From positions 1-16,874 of the forward strand of contig JAEOTQ010000239.1 in NCBI GenBank assembly GCA_016839785.1: a stretch of 16,874 nucleotides of DNA. Reading direction: 5' to 3'. Origin of the DNA: Candidatus Hodarchaeota archaeon (lineage in GTDB: Archaea; Asgardarchaeota; Heimdallarchaeia; Hodarchaeales; Hodarchaeaceae). Numbering within the stretch: the first letter of the stretch is position 1; each line of letters begins with the position of its first letter. The notes below the pieces were generated by a model that was not told where the DNA came from, searched no databases, and saw only the letters and a program-made list of their open reading frames with translations. Of the stretch, positions 4,410 to 16,451 are shown piece after piece. A program made the translations under genes and the position numbers.

Positions 4410-4476
4410 CGATAACTTGAATGATTTCTATACACAAGACTTACTAACACCAACCAAAGCCATAGAAGAGTATAAA

Positions 4477-4929
4477 ATGAAAATCCAACCAATTGGTTAC
4501 GTGAAGTCCTCAGTGATGGAAGCAAAAGACCAGGATTGGGGCAATGTCGTCTCAAAAATTCACATAGATGCTGAATTAATTCCAGGGTTACAAGGATTAG
4601 AGGAATTTTCGCATGCAATAATAATATTTTATATGCATAAAGCCAAAGTAAATTTAGAAACAGATTTAGTACGACACCCACAAGGACGTTCAGATATGCC
4701 CTTTTTAGGAATTTTTGCTCAAAGAGCAAAACATAGACCCAACCCCATTGGCATTACAACGGTCGAACTTATCTCAATTGAAGATGGTATTCTCACTGTG
4801 AAAGGATTAGACGCAATTAATAACACACCTGTTCTTGATATTAAACCCTACTTTCCTATGTTTGATAAAGTGAATGGTACGACACCTGAATGGGTTAATG
4901 CCCTAATGAAAGACTATTTTTTAGCTTGA
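4477..4929 (+). CDS. tsaA: TsaA/TrmO-family SAM-binding protein (tRNA t6A37 N6-methyltransferase-like), single domain
   Basis: MKIQPIGYV, GLEEFSHAIIIFYMH, GIFAQRAKHRPNPIGIT, GLDAINNTPVLDIKPY. The domain begins at ATG 4477; the ORF track starts at TTG 4417. Confidence 0.85.
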   Translation: MKIQPIGYVKSSVMEAKDQDWGNVVSKIHIDAELIPGLQGLEEFSHAIIIFYMHKAKVNLETDLVRHPQGRSDMPFLGIFAQRAKHRPNPIGITTVELISIEDGILTVKGLDAINNTPVLDIKPYFPMFDKVNGTTPEWVNALMKDYFLA

Positions 4930-5280: not shown

Positions 5281-5289
5281 AAAAAAAAA
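5281..5289 (-). terminator. Oligo-T archaeal terminator candidate for the carS operon
   Basis: A9 on the + strand equals T9 on the - strand, 2 nt after the carS stop codon. Confidence 0.5.
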
Positions 5290-5291
5290 GA

Positions 5292-5891
5292 TTAGAGGGG
5301 TACTTCTTGTATCCCAATTAAGTACCCTAAGAAATTTAACACCATATGTAATCCAAGAGTTAATGGTAATAAGAGAATACCCCATTCAATAGGCCATGGA
5401 GCCACGGGATATATGAGTAGTAATGCTGTCAGTAGAAAACCCAACTGATCCATAAAGAGAAAAGATTCCCCCCTTTTCAACCCACTGCGTCTTTTTATAA
5501 AACTACCAGCTAGGTCACCTAATAATGCTCCACAGCCAAGTAAAAATCCAATTAGAATCGCCTGTAGAATGAAATTATCAGCCATGAACTGCAGGAATGG
5601 GTACAATATACCTTTGTTAAAACGACTAATAATCACTATTGGATAATTTACATTACTAAAAAGGATAACAATTGCAACACAAGTCACTATGCCACTTAAT
5701 GTTCCACCTAGAAATCCACGAATGGTTTTACCGTCTCCTAAGATTCGTTTGTCGTCTTTCCAAAATCTTCCACCATCTATAGGCCTGTTATAGCGGCTAC
5801 CTCTGCCTAGAAATACAGGTGCTGCATTCGCAACAAGAGCAGGGAATACAAACACTATCGAATTTATGATTGTTACGATTATATCTACCAT
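5292..5891 (-). CDS. carS: CDP-archaeol synthase (CDP-2,3-bis-(O-geranylgeranyl)-sn-glycerol synthase)
   Basis: PALVANAAPV, PIDGGR..RILGDGKTIRG, GALLGDLAGSFIKRRSGLKRG, DQLGF, H..N..GY.IGI..VP. Start moved to ATG 5891 (GAGGT RBS; minus-strand sequence TAA-A-ATG couples it to the upstream stop). Confidence 0.93.
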   Translation of the reverse strand: MVDIIVTIINSIVFVFPALVANAAPVFLGRGSRYNRPIDGGRFWKDDKRILGDGKTIRGFLGGTLSGIVTCVAIVILFSNVNYPIVIISRFNKGILYPFLQFMADNFILQAILIGFLLGCGALLGDLAGSFIKRRSGLKRGESFLFMDQLGFLLTALLLIYPVAPWPIEWGILLLPLTLGLHMVLNFLGYLIGIQEVPL

Positions 5892-5892
5892 T

Positions 5893-6513
5893 TTATCTAC
5901 CTCGCAAATCGGCTTCATGTTTTGTTTTCATGAGGTTCTTAACCGAAAAAGAAAGCTCTGTATTTTCACCATTTTCCCTCTGATTCTTGTTATCAAGAAT
6001 ACACAACTGAAGAATAAACGCCCCAATATGTGTGAAGAATATTAGAGAAATAATCATTTCATATGATATTACTAACAGAAGAATTAATGATACTCTCTTT
6101 AACCCAGGATCAAATTTTGCCTTATCTCGCAGTGATGTCATCAATAGAATTGAATAAATGGATAGAAAAACAACCTTGTAGTCAATTCCAAAATTGTATG
6201 CCAATGCAAAAAACAGAAGCGCTTCAAGAGACCTATCAAAAATTATTTCTAACTCTTCCCCGGTTTTACTTTCTAATCCATACACACGAGCAATATTACC
6301 ATCAACACCATCGAGAAATAATGAGATACACATTATTATCAGTCCTAATTGCCAATGTGTAAAGAAGATTAATGCAACTGATACTAGTCCTATCAAAAAT
6401 CCTAGAATTGAGACTTGATTTGGAGACATGTTGAACTTCAGATGAAATAAGTCAGAAATCGGGCGCATAATCCCATCGTATGTTTTCTTTACACTAGGTA
6501 CAGCAATATACAT
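5893..6513 (-). CDS. CDP-alcohol phosphatidyltransferase family protein (archaetidyl head-group synthase), variant motif
   Basis: SPNQVS and DGVDGNIAR-x8-G-EELE-IIF-DR match DxxDGxxAR..GxxxDxxxD with the third Asp replaced by Glu. Multiple TM segments. GGTGA RBS upstream of ATG 6513. Confidence 0.88.
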   Translation of the reverse strand: MYIAVPSVKKTYDGIMRPISDLFHLKFNMSPNQVSILGFLIGLVSVALIFFTHWQLGLIIMCISLFLDGVDGNIARVYGLESKTGEELEIIFDRSLEALLFFALAYNFGIDYKVVFLSIYSILLMTSLRDKAKFDPGLKRVSLILLLVISYEMIISLIFFTHIGAFILQLCILDNKNQRENGENTELSFSVKNLMKTKHEADLRGR

Positions 6514-6911
6514 CCTACAATCACCACTGTTGATATTCCAGCAAAATCATCTATTTTTACCCGCATCTTCGGAATTTTAAGATCCGAAAATGGATAAAAA
6601 GGCTGTTTTTCGTAACTCATCATATAATCAAGGATGAGATGCGTCGTGAAGAAGAACACAGGAACCCAGGTCTGCAAAAACACAGCTAAGGGTATTATCC
6701 ACAAATAAGAGACAGGTTCTTGTAAACTCGTTCTCCAATTCCAATATCTTACGATCTTAAACCCATTTTGTTTAAGATAGAGAGGAACCTTAATGACATG
6801 GTCAAAATCAATAAACACTCCAAAAAGAAATGCCCAAAAAATATCGATCCCAGCCAGATCACCTAATTTAATAAACAGAAAACTAACCAATAAATGAGCA
6901 ATAATATTCAT
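6489..6911 (-). CDS. Membrane-bound metal-dependent hydrolase, YdjM-like
   Basis: N-terminal AH, IDFDH, HLILDY and PFYPFS motifs among hydrophobic segments. ATG 6911 with AGGTGG RBS (ORF track uses GTG 6920). Overlaps the next gene by 25 nt. Confidence 0.7.
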   Translation of the reverse strand: MNIIAHLLVSFLFIKLGDLAGIDIFWAFLFGVFIDFDHVIKVPLYLKQNGFKIVRYWNWRTSLQEPVSYLWIIPLAVFLQTWVPVFFFTTHLILDYMMSYEKQPFYPFSDLKIPKMRVKIDDFAGISTVVIVGCILLYLV

Positions 6912-7035: not shown

Positions 7036-7045
7036 TATATAAAAA
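7036..7045. promoter_or_regulatory. TATA-box candidate in the divergent intergenic region
   Basis: TATATAAAAA on + lies about 30 nt before ATG 7075 and reads TTTTTATATA on -, facing the lipid operon. Confidence 0.4.
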
Positions 7046-7895: not shown

Positions 7896-10397
7896 TTATT
7901 TCTCCTTGTTTTTTAAACGTATTAATGCAAGCAGACTAATGATGACCCATATTGAAAGACTATTCCCAGCTCTATCTGAAGTAGTGGAATCAATAGTAGT
8001 AGATTCTGGGTAAAATATAGTTATTACCTTTGAAATCACGAGAGGTTCAAAATTCTCAGTCCAAGAGTAGACAGTGATATCATAACTACCTGTGACTAAA
8101 CCTAACTGAAATAAGTCTAACTCCATGAATCCAATATGACGATCACCCATATAGCGATTTCCACCAATTTCTATCCATCCTTTGATCTCCGTATTGACAG
8201 AAGAGTAATTTTCAGTTGTTAAGAATGTGAATCTCAATTTTGGGGTTTTTGAAACTTCTATTATTCTCGGAAAGTCAATGTGCCCTTTCTCACCATAATT
8301 CTGTAAAACTGTCCAATCCTCATGACCAGCAAAATCAGTCGTATTATTAGCAATAAATCCAAATGAAAGCCCAAATATTTCCTCTGAAGGATTGATCTGT
8401 CCCCACCAATCATTTCCAAGATTAGTTAATGGAGTAGACTTTATTGTTGTCCATCCGTCAGTAGACCAGACAAAATTAATCTCAGAAGCTGATGATAACT
8501 CTGTTGAAGGTTCATATACAATAGAAAAAGATGAATTTGGTCGAATAAATGAGGGAAAGATTGCTCCATGGATTGTTTGGTTGAATAACGTATTATATCC
8601 AAGATATTGCCGATTATTCACCTCGTTCCCTTCATCTATCTGTGATGTTGGGTCGATTACAGCGTTCAACAATATTCCTTCAAACGGATCAAATGTTCCG
8701 ATCTCTATTATCCTGTGACTAAGCCCTAGGATTGTGCCGACTTCTACTGAAGTCAATTCAGTGCTATGATCGGTTAATATGTTCAAAGAAGTTGAGTCTA
8801 TTGGTGTTAATCCCAAATTCCAGACATCTAGACCATATAGAACATCTTTATCACTAGGATTATTTGAAGAATTAATTACTACAATATCTTTGATTGTTAA
8901 ATCAGGTTTAACCGAAGGAAGTATTAATTCTAAAGAAAAAAGATTGTTTTTTTCGTTATTTTCTATCCAAACGTTTGAAGGATCAATATTTGCCTGTACT
9001 GTTGAAATATCTATCTCTTTGGTTATATTCGTAGGAGAAAAAATGTTCATCGTTTGTCCTGGATCCAAAGAAATTGTGGTTGACCATGACCAGTCACGAT
9101 GATCAAAAGAAACAGACACATTTTCTGCACGTTCAGAACCACCGTTTATAACTTCAGCAATAACTCCAAAAACTGAACTAGTATTAATTGGTGCTTCAAT
9201 TGTCTCGATATTTGTAACTGCTAGCTCATGGTTCTTCTTCTTTATCGAAAAACCGTCAATGGTTGAATTATCAAGCGTATAGGTGGTCATCTGGATATTT
9301 GTATAATTAGCTTCAAATAAACATGTATGAAAAACCGATCTTTGAAATTGAGAATATGGATTTCTACTTAACCTTGCCCAGCGTAACGGTGCTCCAGCAC
9401 CACCAGCAGTAATATAGGTGATTCCGTCCTTATAACTCCTTTCATAGTGATGGTCATGACCATTTAAAACAATATCTACATTAAATTGCTTGAAAATCGG
9501 TTCCCAAGCATCTATAAGGACCGGACGTTCAGCATCACCGTAATGGGTACCTGAAGTGTATAGAGGCTTATGAAAGGTGACGATTTTCCAAGGCTTTCTC
9601 GTACTCGCTAAATCCCTAATTAACCAATCTCGTTGGGCCTGATAATAATCTCCATATTGCTGATAGCTATTGAAAACTTCTGAATTCAATGATGTTATGT
9701 GAAGTGGACCATAGTCATATGAAAAATAATACTCATTCCCAGGAAACGCGAAATAATTTCGATAATTTGGCGAAAGGTAAATCTCTTCATGGTTGCCAGG
9801 TGTAACTACTATTGGTGCTTTGGAATTAATTGGTTCAAAATCCTCAAACCATTCATCCCACATAGAATCTACAGCCCCTCCTGTGACTAGATCACCAGAC
9901 ATAATATGAAAATCAGGATCAAATGAAGCAGACAACTCGACAATTTCTAGACGCTGGAGACGTTCTTCGTTAGTTTCAACTCGTGAATCTCCCCAAGCAA
10001 TAAATCGTGTCTCAGCTGATACATCTGATTCGTTAGGTGCTGTTTGAAAGTTTACAATCCCAGACCAGCTATTCTCAACTCCCACACGATAGTAATATTT
10101 CGAATCAGGGGAGAGATTACTCAATCGAATCTCGTGTAAGAATCCGCTTCGGTCCTCAACTACCAGTGATCCAAGACTGGGAGTTAATCCGTATTCACAT
10201 TTACCAAGATCTTGAACCGATGATTCAAACATTATAACAACTGTTGATTGAGGATCATCATCCCAGCTTAATCGGATTTTGGAAATTTTTACTTCTTGAT
10301 CTACCTCAATCCCAATTGTAGGGATCAATGAACCCAGAAAGCTTATGGTTATTATCACAAACAGGAAAAGGAAAACGTCTACTCTCTTCGATTTCAT
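7896..10397 (-). CDS. Secreted, anchored purple-acid-phosphatase-like metallophosphoesterase with FN3-like, two CARDB-like and a possible starch-binding domain
   Basis: Signal peptide; HEIRLSNLSPDSKYYYRVG (PAP N-terminal domain); WGDSR, SGDLV, PGNHE, FHKP, GHDHHYER; IDPSNVWIENNEKNN and IDPTSQIDEGNEVNN (CARDB ends); C-terminal hydrophobic segment plus basic tail. GAGGT RBS. Confidence 0.88.
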   Translation of the reverse strand: MKSKRVDVFLFLFVIITISFLGSLIPTIGIEVDQEVKISKIRLSWDDDPQSTVVIMFESSVQDLGKCEYGLTPSLGSLVVEDRSGFLHEIRLSNLSPDSKYYYRVGVENSWSGIVNFQTAPNESDVSAETRFIAWGDSRVETNEERLQRLEIVELSASFDPDFHIMSGDLVTGGAVDSMWDEWFEDFEPINSKAPIVVTPGNHEEIYLSPNYRNYFAFPGNEYYFSYDYGPLHITSLNSEVFNSYQQYGDYYQAQRDWLIRDLASTRKPWKIVTFHKPLYTSGTHYGDAERPVLIDAWEPIFKQFNVDIVLNGHDHHYERSYKDGITYITAGGAGAPLRWARLSRNPYSQFQRSVFHTCLFEANYTNIQMTTYTLDNSTIDGFSIKKKNHELAVTNIETIEAPINTSSVFGVIAEVINGGSERAENVSVSFDHRDWSWSTTISLDPGQTMNIFSPTNITKEIDISTVQANIDPSNVWIENNEKNNLFSLELILPSVKPDLTIKDIVVINSSNNPSDKDVLYGLDVWNLGLTPIDSTSLNILTDHSTELTSVEVGTILGLSHRIIEIGTFDPFEGILLNAVIDPTSQIDEGNEVNNRQYLGYNTLFNQTIHGAIFPSFIRPNSSFSIVYEPSTELSSASEINFVWSTDGWTTIKSTPLTNLGNDWWGQINPSEEIFGLSFGFIANNTTDFAGHEDWTVLQNYGEKGHIDFPRIIEVSKTPKLRFTFLTTENYSSVNTEIKGWIEIGGNRYMGDRHIGFMELDLFQLGLVTGSYDITVYSWTENFEPLVISKVITIFYPESTTIDSTTSDRAGNSLSIWVIISLLALIRLKNKEK

Positions 10398-11033: not shown

Positions 11034-12230
11034 TCAATCATCTGTCTGCTTCCTGAGGAAGATTACTGGAAAGATTGATAGGAGAGAAAACCCAACGACA
11101 ATGTTAGTGGTCTCAGTAGTAATATGGGCCGAAGTTAATGATGTAGAAGTCGAAATGAGGGGAGAAGTAATAAGCAACCAATCATTTTGCTGACAATCAT
11201 ATGCCCATGTTCCATTGACAAAGATCAGAGGACTTATACTAGAAACTCCTCCAAATAAAACCGCTTTTTGATTCACGGAATCATAGACAAATCGAGAAGT
11301 ACTCGAAGGCGGAATAAAAGACGTATTGTATGCGATCCACATATTTTCATTTGGATAGTAACTCCAAGTATCATTCAGAACTGGTGAAGAAATATATTGG
11401 TTTTGTCTCCCGCCACACACTAATAGTCGATGATAACCTGAGTCATAAACCATTGTATGCCAATAACGCGTATCGGGTTTTACTAATTGTTCTTGTAACT
11501 TCCACGAATTATTTCCATAATTGTAAATCCATAAGTCATTACGAACACCGCTCAAAGTTCGTCCCCCAAAAAGAATTCCTTGATCATAACTTGAATCGTA
11601 CACCATACAATGGCCATAGCTTGGAGGAGGTCTTGAATTCGATTCCATTTCAGTCCATGTATTATCATTAACATCATAAACCCAAAGATCACCTAAATAG
11701 TAAAGTAATTCACCTCCAAAACCTCCAAAAAGGACGATTTTTTGATTCATGGAATCATAATACATACTTGCATCAGAGCGAGGGGGAGGGGAAATCTGAG
11801 GTGTGACTTCTATCCATTCATTTGTGTTACAGTCAAATAACCAAGTTTCATTCAGAACTTCACTTCCTTCAGAAAGTCCCCCAAAGCAAATGATCTTACG
11901 ATGGAAAAAATCGTAGACCATCGAATGATGAGCAATCAAACCAGGATTTGTAATTGTAGAAAGATGTCTCCAAGAGTTATTATTACTAGTAAAACTCCAA
12001 GTCTCGTTAGAATGCCAGGTAGATACTCCTTCTGTGTTAACGACTCCTCCAAAGAGAAGAACTCGTTCATTAATATTATCAAAAACCATCCCATGACCAT
12101 ATCTATTAGAAGGAACTGTATAGGTAGAATTGGGAAGTGCAAGAAGGTGAAAAGAAGAAAAACTTGTGGATGTGTAAATCAGAACAATATATAAGACCAG
12201 AAAATGGCTCTTCTTGGTGATAACACTCAT
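11034..12230 (-). CDS. Secreted, anchored six-bladed Kelch-repeat beta-propeller protein
   Basis: Six repeats of the form HxMVYD..LFGG..(N/D)xTWxYD..W, signal peptide after MSVITKK, S/T linker and C-terminal hydrophobic segment. Start moved to ATG 12230 (GAGGT RBS at 12236-12240). Confidence 0.88.
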   Translation of the reverse strand: MSVITKKSHFLVLYIVLIYTSTSFSSFHLLALPNSTYTVPSNRYGHGMVFDNINERVLLFGGVVNTEGVSTWHSNETWSFTSNNNSWRHLSTITNPGLIAHHSMVYDFFHRKIICFGGLSEGSEVLNETWLFDCNTNEWIEVTPQISPPPRSDASMYYDSMNQKIVLFGGFGGELLYYLGDLWVYDVNDNTWTEMESNSRPPPSYGHCMVYDSSYDQGILFGGRTLSGVRNDLWIYNYGNNSWKLQEQLVKPDTRYWHTMVYDSGYHRLLVCGGRQNQYISSPVLNDTWSYYPNENMWIAYNTSFIPPSSTSRFVYDSVNQKAVLFGGVSSISPLIFVNGTWAYDCQQNDWLLITSPLISTSTSLTSAHITTETTNIVVGFSLLSIFPVIFLRKQTDD

Positions 12231-12402
12231 ATTAAACCTCTTCAAATTAAATATGACTGCTCTTCCTTTCACCTCTCGAGCACCTGCTACCATTGGCATT
12301 GTAGTATAAAAAACGATTGACATCTGCAATCGAAACTTGATTCAGAGCCTGATCTTGTAATATGAAAAATAAGAGGGAACTCTCCAAGCATAAAGAATTT
12401 AC

Positions 12403-14126: not shown

Positions 14127-14438
14127 ATACCTATTCGAGAAATTAATGAAACATCCTTGGAATTTTCACCTTAAAAAGAGGGAAGATTGAGTCATCCATT
14201 CTCATAATTAACACTTCAGATTTCATAAGAAGAGGTTCTATGAGCATTAAAGAATTAAAAATTGTAAGAAAAGGAAGAAAAGGTGAAATAAAGACTAGTT
14301 ATTAGATAAAATGGTTCATCACAAATCGAATTCGCACTAACTTAATTATGTTCTAAAATGTAGTTTTTTATTTTGATGTGGCAAGAAGTCCAACCAATTA
14401 AGATGGAAGTAAGACCCATTCCTACAGGTGAAAACTCT

Positions 14439-15491
14439 ATGAGAATATTATTGAAAAGTGTCTCTTTATTGATTATCCTTTCTATTTTTACTCAAATGAG
14501 AACAGAAACGACTACTGTTTTTTCAACACAAAATAATCAGACTGAGATAGCACCTCTATTCGCACGAATCAAAAATATTGATTGGAATATGACAACACTC
14601 TACGAAGAGTATGATACACTAAATATTACTTTGCACTTAACCATTGTTTATTTCAAAGTGGAATTAGAAATTTGGAATCCTAATATTGAGAGTCAAACGA
14701 TAGAATTTAGTGATTCTGAAGAATTCCCATTAACAATCCAAGAAGATCTAGAAGAGAGTTATCTCGACCTAACTCCTTTTTGGGGAAGTTTGCCGGTAAT
14801 CACGCCCCGTACCTATCTCTCTGGCATCACAACAAAATCATATGAATATCCATTTAGTATAATTGAACCTGATCTTACACAATTACCCAATGGTGAATAC
14901 AGAATCGATCTCAAACCTCCATATTATTCGAACTCTGATACAAGCATTGTGACTTATGGTTTAAGTCTTACAGTCACTGAAGATACCGAAATCATTGAGT
15001 ATGGTCCCTTTCCTTATGAAAACACCGATGCGCAACTCTCGTATATAGTCTCCGAGTGTGATTGTGATGGTTCTTCAGGTTGGAACGAAGGAAATGTCAA
15101 TGTGACCATAGAGAATCACTCGATTTACTTTGAGCAAGTTTTTGTAACCTGGTGCAATTTTGATAAGAATAATCTCACGATTAAACTGGCACAAGTAGGA
15201 GAAACTTTAATGATACTTGAAGAGTATACAACAACTTCAATGACGAAATGTGTGTGTGCTTATCAAATTTTTGGACAAATAACTAATTTGTCTGTAGGTA
15301 ATTACACTTTGGTGTTTCAGTATCAAACAACCGTTGTGAATACCACTCAGTCGAGATTTACATCTGCAATTCCCGTCCTTTTAACTGAATCTGGACCTGA
15401 ATATGACATCGTAAATAGTTGGGGTATCATAATCTCATTTCTTAGTCTATTTTTTGCTAAAAAAAAATCATCAAGAATAAGAAGAAATTGA
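14439..15491 (+). CDS. Secreted, anchored two-domain beta-rich surface glycoprotein
   Basis: Start moved to ATG 14439 (AGGTGA RBS), followed directly by a signal peptide. Nine N-x-S/T sequons, Cys cluster in domain 2 (CDC, WC, CVC), C-terminal hydrophobic segment plus KKKSSRIRRN. Confidence 0.78.
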   Translation: MRILLKSVSLLIILSIFTQMRTETTTVFSTQNNQTEIAPLFARIKNIDWNMTTLYEEYDTLNITLHLTIVYFKVELEIWNPNIESQTIEFSDSEEFPLTIQEDLEESYLDLTPFWGSLPVITPRTYLSGITTKSYEYPFSIIEPDLTQLPNGEYRIDLKPPYYSNSDTSIVTYGLSLTVTEDTEIIEYGPFPYENTDAQLSYIVSECDCDGSSGWNEGNVNVTIENHSIYFEQVFVTWCNFDKNNLTIKLAQVGETLMILEEYTTTSMTKCVCAYQIFGQITNLSVGNYTLVFQYQTTVVNTTQSRFTSAIPVLLTESGPEYDIVNSWGIIISFLSLFFAKKKSSRIRRN

Positions 15492-15551: not shown

Positions 15552-16451
15552 CTAAATTTCCAACTTGTCTTTTCTTCTTGTCTTTTTAGCGTAGAGGAAG
15601 CAACCCACTAATATAATTAATGTAGGAAACAGTAGTAGACCAGATGTTATTTGTGAGAGAGTTGTTGTAGTAGAAGACTCTCTCATGGTAGTGGTAGACG
15701 AAGTGGTAGTGGTAGACGAAGTGTCAGTTGTGGGTTGGATGGTTGTGGACTCACTTGTAGGGGGAACAATTCTTGAATCAACCATGCTGATGCCATCATA
15801 CCAAATCGAAATACTTGTACCATAACCAGACACTCCATACACATGCAAATAAATTTCAAAGTATTTTACAATAGACAAGTTGGAAACATTGGGTGGTTTA
15901 ATTCCTGGACTCGAAAGATTAACAGTCACTGTGTGCCATTCAGGATAGGATTGAGTTCTAATAAGTAATATGGAGTTCTCAGAATCATTGTTATCTTGAA
16001 TCTCATTTGAAACACTCCAATAAGTTCTTCCCAAGTAAGTATCTGCATAATCATGGTAATACACTGCTAAACCTGCTTGATATAAAGAACCATTATCATG
16101 CTTGATTGAAAATGAAAATGAAAAATCTGTCAGATCACTACGATTGACCTTTTGCCGATATCCGATTCTGTTTTGAGAATTTGGGGCGATTAGAACAATT
16201 GATTTTTCACCCTCAAAAGAATCAGAAATGTTTATATGAGCTTCTCCTGGGAAGGGCCAACCAACAAAATTCCAATCTGTAAAATTTTGCTCAAACCCGC
16301 CATTGGACACTAGTTCACTCTTGTCCAGAACCTTCTGCGAATTCAGAGTCCATTTAGTATTATTTATTATGCTATCATTAGCTAACAAAGGGAAAACTAG
16401 TATTACTCCTAAGAAAAAACAAAGAAATGATATTATTTTTACTTTTGACAA
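15552..16451 (-). CDS. Secreted, anchored protein with CBM4/9-like carbohydrate-binding domain and Ser/Thr stalk
   Basis: TTG start with GGTGGAG RBS; signal peptide; ELVSNGGFEQNFTDW start and IWYDGISM end typical of the galactose-binding-like jelly roll; Thr-rich linker; TM plus KKTRRK. Confidence 0.78.
   Translation of the reverse strand: MSKVKIISFLCFFLGVILVFPLLANDSIINNTKWTLNSQKVLDKSELVSNGGFEQNFTDWNFVGWPFPGEAHINISDSFEGEKSIVLIAPNSQNRIGYRQKVNRSDLTDFSFSFSIKHDNGSLYQAGLAVYYHDYADTYLGRTYWSVSNEIQDNNDSENSILLIRTQSYPEWHTVTVNLSSPGIKPPNVSNLSIVKYFEIYLHVYGVSGYGTSISIWYDGISMVDSRIVPPTSESTTIQPTTDTSSTTTTSSTTTMRESSTTTTLSQITSGLLLFPTLIILVGCFLYAKKTRRKDKLEI
15686..15723. repeat. Perfect 18-bp tandem duplication inside the Ser/Thr stalk
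   Basis: TGGTAGTGGTAGACGAAG occurs twice in a row (15686-15703, 15704-15721) and encodes TSSTTT-type units on the minus strand. Confidence 0.9.

What the first reader, a model, noticed from the sequence alone, without database searches (positions are those of the whole stretch)
5292..6911. Translationally coupled lipid operon: uncharacterised membrane hydrolase + CDP-alcohol phosphotransferase + CarS
Seen: three minus-strand membrane-protein genes joined by a 25-nt overlap and a TAA-A-ATG junction, each with an RBS, ending at a T9 tract. Established: CarS makes CDP-archaeol and CDP-alcohol phosphotransferases use it to attach a head group. For inositol-phosphate and glycerol-phosphate acceptors a phosphatase must then act, and that enzyme is poorly assigned in archaea. 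Inference: the YdjM-like metal hydrolase is the third enzyme of a self-contained head-group pathway (lipid phosphatase or phospholipase-type remodeller), which would give a function to an uncharacterised family. I do not know this triad as a described operon.
Basis: partly seen in the sequence, partly recalled or inferred. Interest (0 to 1): 0.75.

Follow-up and report, generated by a model that had tools for sequence, protein, structure and literature searches.

The report
Lipid head-group enzyme with obligate partner
An Asgard archaeon carries a three-gene membrane-lipid cassette whose small, uncharacterised membrane protein sits beside the same head-group-attaching enzyme in distant archaea and bacteria and is predicted to bind it, making it a testable candidate for a missing lipid-phosphatase step.

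Summary
Three minus-strand genes run head to tail: a 140-aa membrane protein ("hyd"), a CDP-alcohol phosphatidyltransferase (CDP-AP) and CarS. They are joined by a 25-nt overlap and a TAA-A-ATG junction, and end at a T9 tract.

- **An accessory cassette.** The window comes from a Hodarchaeales-type Asgard archaeon. The cassette is present in 8 of 22 genomes of the genus. Its CarS is a second copy; the other lies among core genes.
- **The strongest result is the hyd + CDP-AP pair.** Starting from hyd, 78 of 80 loci have this CDP-AP subfamily directly downstream. They span archaea, CPR bacteria, Bacteroidota, Ignavibacteriota, Chlorobiota and Gemmatimonadota. Starting from the CDP-AP, 78 of 80 have hyd directly upstream, and the other 2 lack the upstream sequence. 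The two gene trees agree.
- **Binding is predicted.** Co-folding scores 0.64 against 0.00 for the best control.
- **Family and function.** hyd is a sub-threshold, divergent YdjM/DUF457 relative with invariant His/Asp/Glu residues. No solved structure or known phosphatase family matches it.
- **Head group.** In four Ignavibacteriota, Bacteroidota and Chlorobiaceae genomes the pair lies in a cluster with myo-inositol-phosphate synthase.

Best reading: a two-subunit head-group module in which hyd is probably the phosphoesterase that trims an inositol-phosphate-type intermediate. This is inferred, not shown.

The parts
6489..6911 (-). hyd: 140-aa small membrane protein, a divergent YdjM/DUF457-like relative and the obligate neighbour of the CDP-AP
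   Evidence: PF04307 22.1 bits, under the cut-off of 29. 46 of 81 relatives match PF04307 at E<=0.01. Invariant H6, D35, D37, H38, R60, Q64, E65, H91, D95, K102. AF2 model pLDDT 79.6, six helices.
5893..6513 (-). CDP-alcohol phosphatidyltransferase of an unnamed subfamily, distantly like AIP/PIP synthases
   Evidence: PF01066 45.9 bits. Best NCBIfam hit is AIP synthase at 66.1 bits against a cut-off of 180. Catalytic motif D68-x2-D71-G72-x2-A75-R76-x8-G85-x3-E89-x3-D93, plus the subfamily motif FDPGxKR at 134-140.
5292..5891 (-). CarS (CDP-archaeol synthase), the second paralog in this genome
   Evidence: PF01864 135.3 bits; NF003114 167.5 bits against a cut-off of 148. The other copy is at G000:C135:30132-30731.
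6489..6513 (-). 25-nt overlap of the hyd 3' end with the CDP-AP start
   Evidence: Overlaps at this junction recur in other lineages in a crude ORF-based tally: 25 nt in 6 of 78 loci, 37 nt in 6, 8 nt in 10.
5889..5895 (-). TAA-A-ATG junction between CDP-AP and carS
   Evidence: The closest relative, L057, has the same one-base spacing.
5281..5289 (-). T9 tract two bases after the carS stop; likely archaeal oligo-T terminator
   Evidence: One of two T>=9 runs on that strand in the window.
7036..7043 (-). TTTATATA, a TATA-box-like motif about 125 nt upstream of the hyd start; possible promoter, weak evidence
   Evidence: Pattern match only.

Best explanation
The window encodes an accessory, self-contained lipid head-group cassette.

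Proposed steps:
1. CarS, a second paralog, activates the archaeal core lipid to CDP-archaeol.
2. The CDP-alcohol phosphatidyltransferase transfers the archaetidyl group to a phosphorylated alcohol, most likely an inositol-phosphate-type acceptor.
3. The small YdjM-like membrane protein sits bound to the transferase as a second subunit. It acts as a metal-dependent phosphoesterase that removes the remaining phosphate from the head group.

Shown here:
- The gene layout.
- The family membership of CarS and the CDP-AP.
- The strict two-way, cross-domain linkage of hyd with this CDP-AP subfamily.
- Agreement between the two gene trees.
- A predicted complex.

Inferred: the lipid donor, the identity of the acceptor, metal binding, and the phosphatase reaction.
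For: (1) Linkage.
- hyd is followed on the same strand by this CDP-AP in 78 of the 80 best loci, out of 132 relatives found in species-representative genomes. These cover Hodarchaeales, Woesearchaeota, Methanosarcinales, three CPR groups, Bacteroidota, Ignavibacteriota, Chlorobiaceae and Gemmatimonadota. Of the two misses, one is cut by a contig end and one is a true exception.
- In reverse, a scan with the CDP-AP signature in metagenomes found 376 relatives. Of the best 80, 78 have hyd directly upstream. The other 2 have under 430 nt of upstream sequence.

(2) Inheritance as a unit. The hyd and CDP-AP trees show the same main split, with support of 95-96.

(3) Predicted binding.
- ipSAE 0.64 (runs 0.64, 0.66, 0.63); best of 3 controls 0.00.
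- The mark was reached by 58 of 80 solved complexes and 2 of 110 mismatched pairs.
- Runs agree in at least 91% of contacts; partner pLDDT is at least 81.
- Own alignments were used, so the calibration counts hold only roughly.
- No like complex is solved, so the pass is not from memory.
- The interface includes conserved residues of both proteins: hyd W71, P74, P107; CDP-AP F159, D174, Q178.

(4) Residues that look catalytic. Invariant H6, D35, D37, H38, E65, H91, D95, with R60, K41, K102 and Y96. 46 of 81 relatives match YdjM.

(5) A phosphorylated acceptor is plausible.
- The nearest named CDP-AP families are AIP synthase, PIP synthase and DIPP synthase, all of which use inositol-1-phosphate.
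- The subfamily keeps an invariant K139/R140.
- In 4 of 4 Ignavibacteriota/Bacteroidota/Chlorobiaceae genomes where the contigs matched, MIPS lies on the same strand within 0-3.8 kb of the cluster.
- MIPS is present in 7 of 10 module-bearing genomes tested, and twice in G000.

(6) The step is open. A 2022 review (passages read) calls the PIP phosphatase unidentified and names no gene for the archaeal enzyme. A 2026 preprint still calls the mycobacterial one unidentified.

(7) The triad with CarS recurs outside Hodarchaeales, in L068, L071 and L127.
Against: - No known phosphatase family matches hyd. Only YdjM appears, sub-threshold at 22.1 bits against 29, and NCBIfam gives nothing.
- I found no demonstrated activity for any YdjM protein.
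- No structural relative was found: Foldseek gave nothing at E<=0.001, and the best VIA score was Z 6.4, within helical noise.
- Other candidate hydrolases lie in bacterial versions of the cluster: HAD, alpha/beta hydrolase, PAP2_3.
- Bacterial versions carry an NTP transferase. That could mean CDP-alcohol donors and no phosphorylated lipid intermediate.
- The predicted interface uses CDP-AP residues 113-132 and 156-182, not the catalytic stretch 68-97, so hand-off of the product is not evident.
- G000 has a better AIP-synthase candidate elsewhere, at 127.8 bits. No MIPS gene lies near the cassette in G000.
- The cassette is patchy: 8 of 22 genomes in the genus, and 1 weak hit in 378 other Asgard genomes.
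- One Saccharibacteria locus has hyd without a CDP-AP.
- The 80-locus sets are dominated by Gemmatimonadota (54 of 80) and are not independent.
Confidence: 0.45

Rival explanations
1. hyd is catalytic but does a different reaction. One option is a phospholipase-C-type or phosphatidate/archaetidate-phosphatase-type cleavage that supplies the lipid acceptor. Another is removal of an existing head group, so that CarS and the CDP-AP can attach a new one (head-group exchange or salvage).
For: - The same invariant His/Asp/Glu set fits any metallo-phosphoesterase.
- An Atlas cluster near hyd carries PF04307 on 97% and zinc phospholipase C (PF00882) on 22% of its members. Its score is 0.88, a lead only.
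- The triad occurs in CPR bacteria, which are thought to scavenge lipids (recalled).
- An NTP transferase sits directly upstream in Ignavibacteriota and Bacteroidota. An apparent NTP-transferase-hyd fusion exists: P0152, with 13 member sequences. Both would fit a Kennedy-type route that needs a dephosphorylated lipid acceptor.
Against: - No PF00882 match for hyd or 9 relatives, even at E<=10.
- In archaea, a step that removes the lipid's phosphate would compete with the adjacent CarS for the same substrate.
- The linker of P0152 is low-complexity, so the fusion may be a gene-calling artefact.
Confidence: 0.2
2. hyd is a non-catalytic subunit: a membrane scaffold, stabiliser or regulator that the CDP-AP subfamily needs for folding, assembly or substrate access.
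For: - Strict pairing in both directions and a predicted complex need no catalysis.
- Conserved residues W71, P74 and P107 lie in the predicted interface.
- A 2026 preprint mentions, in one passage only, a small protein predicted as a partner of another CDP-AP, PgsA2.
- Apparent fusions of hyd to several different neighbours would suit an anchor role: CDP-AP, NTP transferase, LPG_synthase_TM.
Against: Seven invariant His/Asp/Glu residues, plus Arg/Lys/Tyr, are kept across archaea and bacteria at 40-56% overall identity. That is more than a scaffold usually keeps. The wider YdjM family shares H6, D35, D37, H91 and D95.
Confidence: 0.2
3. The pair makes a soluble inositol-phosphate compound (di-inositol-phosphate-like) rather than a membrane lipid, at least in bacteria. 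hyd would still act as the final phosphatase.
For: - The second-best NCBIfam hit is the IPCT/DIPP synthase, at 52 bits for the window protein.
- An NTP transferase lies directly upstream and MIPS lies in the same cluster in Ignavibacteriota, Bacteroidota and Chlorobiaceae genomes.
Against: - In Hodarchaeales, Methanosarcinales and CPR bacteria the neighbour is CarS, a lipid-activating enzyme.
- All scores are far below the equivalog cut-offs.
Confidence: 0.08
4. The adjacency has no functional meaning; hyd is an unrelated membrane protein that happens to lie upstream.
For: None beyond the general caution that neighbours need not interact.
Against: 78 of 80 and 78 of 80 in the two directions, across about ten phylum-level lineages. 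The trees agree. The pair stays together when CarS changes side.
Confidence: 0.02

Closest known systems
Archaeal archaetidylinositol pathway: CarS, AIP synthase, then an AIP phosphatase for which no gene is named (review PMC9385802, passages read)
   Same: CarS is followed by a CDP-AP whose nearest named family is AIP synthase, and a dephosphorylating step would be needed. The phosphatase gene is the open slot.
   Different: - The CDP-AP scores 66.1 bits against a cut-off of 180, so it is not the equivalog.
- The genome has a better AIP-synthase candidate elsewhere.
- The cassette is accessory and has its own CarS copy.
Bacteroides thetaiotaomicron inositol-lipid cluster: MIPS BT_1526, PIP synthase BT_1523, PIP phosphatase BT_1525 of the PgpA family (PMC9246714, passages read)
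   Same: A synthase and a phosphatase are encoded together, with MIPS and an LPG-synthase-like membrane protein nearby. The bacterial versions of the present pair also lie beside MIPS, or beside LPG_synthase_TM.
   Different: - hyd is not PgpA-like.
- The CDP-AP is far below the PIPS models: 45.1 bits against a cut-off of 170, and 22.9 against 350.
- The pair here is predicted to form a complex.
Bacteroides vulgatus-type 'alternative' inositol cluster: NTP transferase, CDP-AP and HAD hydrolase near MIPS; unconfirmed (PMC9246714)
   Same: The Ignavibacteriota cluster L219 holds an NTP transferase, a CDP-AP, a HAD hydrolase and MIPS on one strand.
   Different: L219 also holds hyd, a second CDP-AP, a class-III aminotransferase, a GFO/IDH/MocA oxidoreductase and an unnamed 274-aa protein. 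I did not test orthology to the B. vulgatus genes.
E. coli YdjM / YbcI (PF04307, DUF457, 'membrane-bound metal-dependent hydrolase')
   Same: Remote homology through intermediates, and shared His/Asp positions H6, D35, D37, H91, D95.
   Different: - Below the Pfam cut-off.
- Shorter: 140 aa against a 176-position model.
- Only this subfamily is tied to a CDP-AP. The other 10 YdjM-like hits in G000 lie on contigs without CDP-AP or carS hits.
- The function of YdjM is unknown.
CPR triad of CDP-AP, PHP phosphoesterase and CarS-like enzyme
   Same: The same three-slot layout: a CarS-type activator, a CDP-AP, and one metal-phosphoesterase-like protein.
   Different: The third slot there is a PHP-family protein; here it is YdjM-like. 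I did not examine those loci.

Membership tests
CDP-archaeol synthase CarS (PF01864 / NF003114) | Score above the curated cut-offs over the full length | tested here: met
   PF01864 135.3 bits (cut-off 22), residues 6-198. NF003114 167.5 bits (cut-off 148).
CDP-alcohol phosphatidyltransferase (PF01066) | Pfam score above cut-off, and the motif D-x2-D-G-x2-A-R-x8-G-x3-D-x3-D (motif as quoted in PMC9246714) | tested here: met
   45.9 bits against a cut-off of 22. D68, D71, G72, A75, R76, G85 and D93 are invariant in 32 rows. The third acidic position is E89 in the window and E or D across the subfamily.
Archaetidylinositol phosphate synthase (NF040950 equivalog) | Score at or above the curated cut-off of 180 bits | tested here: not met
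   66.1 bits. Bacterial partners of the same subfamily score 62-71 bits.
YdjM / DUF457 (PF04307) | Score at or above the Pfam gathering cut-off of 29 bits | tested here: not met
   22.1 bits, partial match (residues 65-129). Three other subfamily members gave 19.0, 20.3 and no match.
YdjM / DUF457 (PF04307) | Homology traceable through intermediate sequences, with shared conserved His/Asp positions | tested here: met
   A profile of 23 sequences finds 122 representatives. Of 81 scanned, 46 match PF04307 at E<=0.01. One of them, P0127, scores 35 bits, over the cut-off. H6, D35, D37, H91 and D95 are kept in at least 90% of the 81.
Known lipid-phosphate phosphatases (PgpA, PAP2/PgpB, HAD/PgpC) | Sequence match to one of these families | tested here: not met
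   The Pfam scan of hyd at E<=10 returns only YdjM. NCBIfam returns nothing.
Zinc phospholipase C / P1 nuclease superfamily (that YdjM belongs to this Pfam clan is recalled, not checked) | Detectable sequence or fold similarity to PF00882 or solved members | tested here: inconclusive
   No PF00882 hit at E<=10 for 10 proteins. No such chain in the Foldseek or VIA lists. One Atlas cluster mixes PF04307 (97%) and PF00882 (22%) at score 0.88.
Metal-dependent hydrolase (functional class) | Bound metal and hydrolytic activity | not testable with these tools

The most novel reading that the evidence does not exclude
A subfamily of YdjM/DUF457 proteins is the membrane-embedded catalytic partner of a CDP-alcohol phosphatidyltransferase. 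Together they form a two-subunit 'synthase-phosphatase' enzyme that makes inositol-type phospholipids in one complex. This unit is shared by archaea (including the Asgard lineage), CPR bacteria, Bacteroidota, Ignavibacteriota, Chlorobiota and Gemmatimonadota. It would be a third, unrelated answer to the lipid head-group phosphatase problem, and the first biochemical function for any DUF457 protein.
Probability: 0.35. Interest if true: 0.85.

Novelty: new variant of a known kind. Interest (0 to 1): 0.7.

Why it matters
- **An open step.** The phosphatase that finishes inositol-phospholipid synthesis was called unidentified in a 2022 review and still has no gene in mycobacteria, as far as the passages I read show. 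The only assigned one I saw is PgpA-like, in Bacteroides.
- **A concrete, cheap test.** A small protein that is welded to one transferase subfamily across two domains can be tested directly: co-express with and without it, then read the lipids.
- **A family without a function.** It would give a first function to part of a large family of unknown role. This genome alone has about 11 YdjM-like genes.
- **A precedent.** It would show that CDP-alcohol transferases, usually treated as stand-alone enzymes, can have obligate partners.
- **A link to eukaryote origins.** The cassette sits in Hodarchaeales-type Asgard archaea and has close bacterial relatives. That makes it a traceable example of lipid head-group genes shared across the archaeal-bacterial divide.

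Tried and rejected
- **Literature on 'DUF457'.** The top hit was a word-start match to DUF4579, unrelated. The other listings were not relevant by title.
- **'YdjM / YbcI / membrane-bound metal-dependent hydrolase' and 'COG1988 / PF04307 / IPR007404'.** By listing only, nothing functional turned up.
- **'Hodarchaeales / CDP-archaeol / phospholipid'.** No description of the cassette.
- **The FCB ether-lipid paper.** It does not mention hydrolases or CDP-alcohol enzymes.
- **Solved structures by sequence.** Zero hits with A1. With A2 there were three chance-level hits at E 0.13-1.1.
- **Fold searches.** Foldseek against the PDB gave nothing at E<=0.001. VIA wide gave a best Z of 6.4 to archaeal virus coat proteins, within the noise stated for helical models.
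- **Zinc phospholipase C link.** Not detected by Pfam at E<=10.
- **The search for related loci with the diverse alignment A3.** It failed for lack of a conserved stretch, so A1 was used instead.
- **Expression.** No RNA holder is listed among the 20 runs returned.
- **Earlier findings.** Look-ups by place and by sequence returned nothing.
- **ORF-based junction tally.** It is polluted by shadow ORFs in high-G+C genomes. I used the tblastn coordinates for adjacency instead.
- **Paper supplements.** The supplementary tables of PMC9246714 may list cluster genes that bear on the comparison with the B. vulgatus-type cluster.
Full report
**What is in the window.** Three genes lie head to tail on the minus strand.
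- hyd: 6489-6911, 140 aa.
- A CDP-alcohol phosphatidyltransferase (CDP-AP): 5893-6513, 206 aa.
- carS: 5292-5891, 199 aa.

hyd and the CDP-AP overlap by 25 nt. The CDP-AP stop, one A and the carS ATG form TAA-A-ATG. Each start is preceded by a GGTG/GAGGT-type motif at 5-7 nt. A T9 tract begins two bases after the carS stop. It is one of only two T>=9 runs on that strand in 16.9 kb at 36% G+C. The next gene downstream (TrmO-like, 4417-4929) is convergent. A DUF1684 gene ends 420 nt upstream.

**Families.**
- CarS is unambiguous: PF01864 135.3 bits; NF003114 167.5 bits against a cut-off of 148.
- The CDP-AP is a clear PF01066 member at 45.9 bits. It fits no named equivalog. The best is AIP synthase at 66.1 bits against 180, then IPCT/DIPP synthase at 52 and PIP synthase at 45.1.
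- hyd matches YdjM/DUF457 only below threshold: 22.1 bits against 29, partial. NCBIfam gives nothing.
- A profile of 23 close relatives finds 122 cluster representatives at E<=0.001. Of 81 scanned, 46 match PF04307 at E<=0.01. hyd is therefore a divergent short branch of that superfamily, not a member by Pfam's own cut-off.
- H6, D35, D37, H38, R60, Q64, E65, H91, D95 and K102 are invariant in the close set. They are kept in the cross-domain sets.

**Organism and status of the cassette.**
- Names attached to the nearest proteins and contigs are Hodarchaeales, Hodarchaeota, Heimdallarchaeota and Promethearchaeota, so this is an Asgard archaeon.
- hyd occurs in 8 of 22 genomes of the genus, counting G000, and in 0 of 19 other genomes of the order and class searched.
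- With the profile, it occurs in 8 of those 22 plus one weak hit (33 bits) among 378 other Asgard genomes.
- In all 8 loci the CDP-AP follows hyd.
- carS lies downstream in 5 loci and upstream (carS-hyd-CDP-AP) in 2. In one 1.8-kb contig it is not seen.
- G000 has a second carS, on contig C135 beside Alba-like, GHMP-kinase-like, PCNA-like and RFC-like genes. These neighbour names are my reading of the translations; no family scan was run on them.
- Nearly every genome of the genus has that divergent copy. The window-type carS appears only where hyd does.
- In a carS tree, the cassette copies, the housekeeping copies and the copies of the sister family fall in one order-level clade (support 100/98). 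Their order inside it is unresolved.
- The cassette is thus an accessory unit with its own CarS paralog, born within the order. G000 also has 6 CDP-AP genes and about 11 YdjM-like hits. None of the other YdjM-like genes shares a contig with a CDP-AP or carS hit.

**The conserved unit is the pair, across domains.**
- A scan of species-representative genomes with the hyd alignment found 132 relatives. The best 80 loci comprise 54 Gemmatimonadota, 10 Bacteroidota, 6 Hodarchaeales-type, 4 Ignavibacteriota, 3 CPR and 1 each of Chlorobiaceae, Woesearchaeota and Methanosarcinales. The taxon labels are my reading of the record titles. Identity to the window protein is 39-56% outside the Hodarchaeales-type loci.
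- In 78 of the 80, a homolog of the window's CDP-AP (29-39% identity in bacteria) follows on the same strand. One miss is cut by the contig end. One Saccharibacteria locus is a true exception.
- In the other direction, a scan of metagenome contigs with the CDP-AP's own signature ([SA][KGR][FLV]DPG[FLV]KR[FVI]) found 376 relatives. In 78 of the best 80, hyd lies directly upstream. The other 2 have under 430 nt of upstream sequence.
- Quick trees of hyd (40 rows) and the CDP-AP (38 rows) used all non-Gemmatimonadota loci and every fourth Gemmatimonadota locus. Both show the same main split, with support of 95-96. Hodarchaeales, Woesearchaeota and Methanosarcinales fall on one side. The Bacteroidota/Ignavibacteriota/Chlorobiaceae group and Gemmatimonadota fall on the other. 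The CPR rows differ: in the hyd tree Saccharibacteria joins the archaea while Amesbacteria and Woesebacteria fall with the bacteria; in the CDP-AP tree Amesbacteria and Woesebacteria join the archaea.
- The sets are rich in close kin, so the counts overstate independence. About ten phylum-level lineages are involved.

**Predicted complex.** Co-folding used row-matched alignments of 32 sequences each.
- ipSAE was 0.64 (runs 0.64, 0.66, 0.63) against 0.00 for the best of three controls.
- That mark was reached by 58 of 80 solved complexes and 2 of 110 mismatched pairs.
- The runs agree in at least 91% of contacts, and partner pLDDT is at least 81. Because my own alignments were used, the calibration holds only roughly.
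- The interface joins CDP-AP residues 113-132 and 156-182 to hyd residues 37-48, 57-78 and 106-108.
- It includes conserved residues of both proteins. It lies next to the subfamily motif FDPGxKR (134-140).
- No YdjM structure is solved, so the pass is not a memory of a known complex.
- It is a model's confidence, not a measurement.

**Apparent fusions in the protein database.**
- hyd + CDP-AP: P0150, one sequence. It could be a frameshift in the overlap.
- NTP transferase + hyd: P0152, 13 member sequences, with a low-complexity linker.
- LPG_synthase_TM + hyd: P0154 and P0158.

I treat them as weak support.

**What the pair works on.** The CDP-AP keeps the catalytic motif, with E or D at the third acidic position, so it is probably active. 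Neighbours differ by lineage.
- **Archaea and CPR:** CarS. This is confirmed by Pfam or NCBIfam in L068, L071 and L127.
- **Ignavibacteriota, Bacteroidota and Chlorobiaceae:** the Ignavibacteriota locus L219 has a one-strand cluster: NTP transferase, hyd, CDP-AP, an unnamed 274-aa protein, a class-III aminotransferase, a second CDP-AP, a GFO/IDH/MocA oxidoreductase, a HAD hydrolase and MIPS. The other three genomes share the first six of these genes. MIPS lies on the same contig and strand within 0-3.8 kb in all 4 genomes where the contigs could be matched.
- **Gemmatimonadota:** GFO/IDH/MocA, LPG_synthase_TM, hyd, CDP-AP, an alpha/beta hydrolase, a GT4 glycosyltransferase and a polysaccharide deacetylase. 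MIPS is on other contigs.

MIPS is present in 7 of 10 module-bearing genomes tested. The three without it are small assemblies of 0.4-1.2 Mb. G000 has two MIPS-like genes. Inositol phosphate is therefore the best guess for the acceptor. The similarity to AIP, PIP and DIPP synthases points the same way. It is not shown for the archaeal cassette.

**Mechanism and its rivals.**
- Any CDP-AP that uses a phosphorylated alcohol leaves a phosphate to be removed.
- The passages I read say the PIP phosphatase was unidentified in 2022 and name no gene for the archaeal enzyme. The mycobacterial one was still unidentified in 2026. It is PgpA-like in B. thetaiotaomicron.
- A tightly bound partner with an invariant His/Asp/Glu set fits that slot. 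I put this at 0.45.
- Against it: there is no match to any known phosphatase, and no known activity for YdjM. Other hydrolases lie in the bacterial clusters. The NTP-transferase context could mean CDP-alcohol donors. The predicted interface lies away from the catalytic helices.
- Rivals: a different phosphoesterase reaction, such as acceptor supply or head-group exchange (0.2); a non-catalytic subunit (0.2); a soluble inositol-phosphate product (0.08); chance adjacency (0.02).
- That the pair is a functional unit I hold at about 0.9.

**Novelty.** CarS and the CDP-AP are known kinds. The obligate YdjM-like partner, the cross-domain pair and the accessory triad were not described in any paper that my searches returned. 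Those searches cover open-access papers and bioRxiv only. Earlier AI notes of this scan describe a CPR triad with a PHP phosphoesterase in the third slot. I did not check those loci; they are a parallel, not evidence.

Noticed in passing
L219:3556-11506 (Ignavibacteriota genome G401); the first six genes of the cluster also in L220, L221, L224: A nine-gene one-strand cluster: NTP transferase, hyd, CDP-AP, an unnamed 274-aa protein (weak RimK/ATP-grasp-like tail), class-III aminotransferase, a second CDP-AP (303 aa), GFO/IDH/MocA oxidoreductase, HAD hydrolase and MIPS. It looks like a route to an inositol-derived, possibly aminated, lipid head group. It resembles the unconfirmed B. vulgatus-type cluster but is larger.
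   Followed up: partly
L065:2002-7626 and other Gemmatimonadota loci (L088, L101, L112, L128, L130): In Gemmatimonadota the pair sits between an LPG_synthase_TM/HpnL-like gene and an alpha/beta hydrolase, a GT4 glycosyltransferase and a polysaccharide deacetylase. In several loci hyd is in one open frame with the LPG_synthase_TM gene (ORFs of 514-569 aa), matching the database proteins P0154 and P0158. L088 has a PAP2_3 gene nearby.
   Followed up: partly
G000:C135:30120-30842 (minus strand): The second, more divergent carS of this genome (PF01864 102.7 bits). By my reading of the translations it lies among Alba-like, GHMP-kinase-like, PCNA-like and RFC-like genes. It is probably the housekeeping copy. 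Most genomes of the genus have only this type.
   Followed up: partly
G000, 11 places: The genome holds about 11 YdjM-like matches, 6 over the Pfam cut-off. One is part of a 457-aa open frame (C13:12886-13335). Only the window's copy lies near lipid genes.
   Followed up: no
L076:1719-2901 (Saccharibacteria): The one true exception to the pairing. Here hyd is followed by a 209-aa membrane-like protein with no Pfam match, then a TIM-like gene.
   Followed up: partly
L061:3370-3753 (record titled Candidatus Hodarchaeum mangrovi): hyd ends at residue 127, so most of the last predicted helix (121-139) is missing. This is either natural variation in the poorly conserved C-terminus or a damaged copy.
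   Followed up: partly
window 7896-10397 (minus strand): An 833-aa protein with a signal-like start and a hydrophobic C-terminal stretch. It has purple-acid-phosphatase N-terminal, calcineurin-like phosphoesterase and CARDB domains, so it is probably a cell-surface phosphatase. It is not conserved next to the cassette in other species.
   Followed up: no
window 11034-12329, 14373-15491, 15552-16451: Several predicted surface or membrane-anchored proteins with hydrophobic C-terminal tails. One shows Kelch-like repeats by eye (11034-12329). None was scanned.
   Followed up: no
G000:C228:10269-11641: An archaetidylserine-synthase-like CDP-AP directly beside a phosphatidylserine-decarboxylase-like gene. 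This is the expected serine/ethanolamine head-group pair of the core pathway. All scores are below the equivalog cut-offs.
   Followed up: partly
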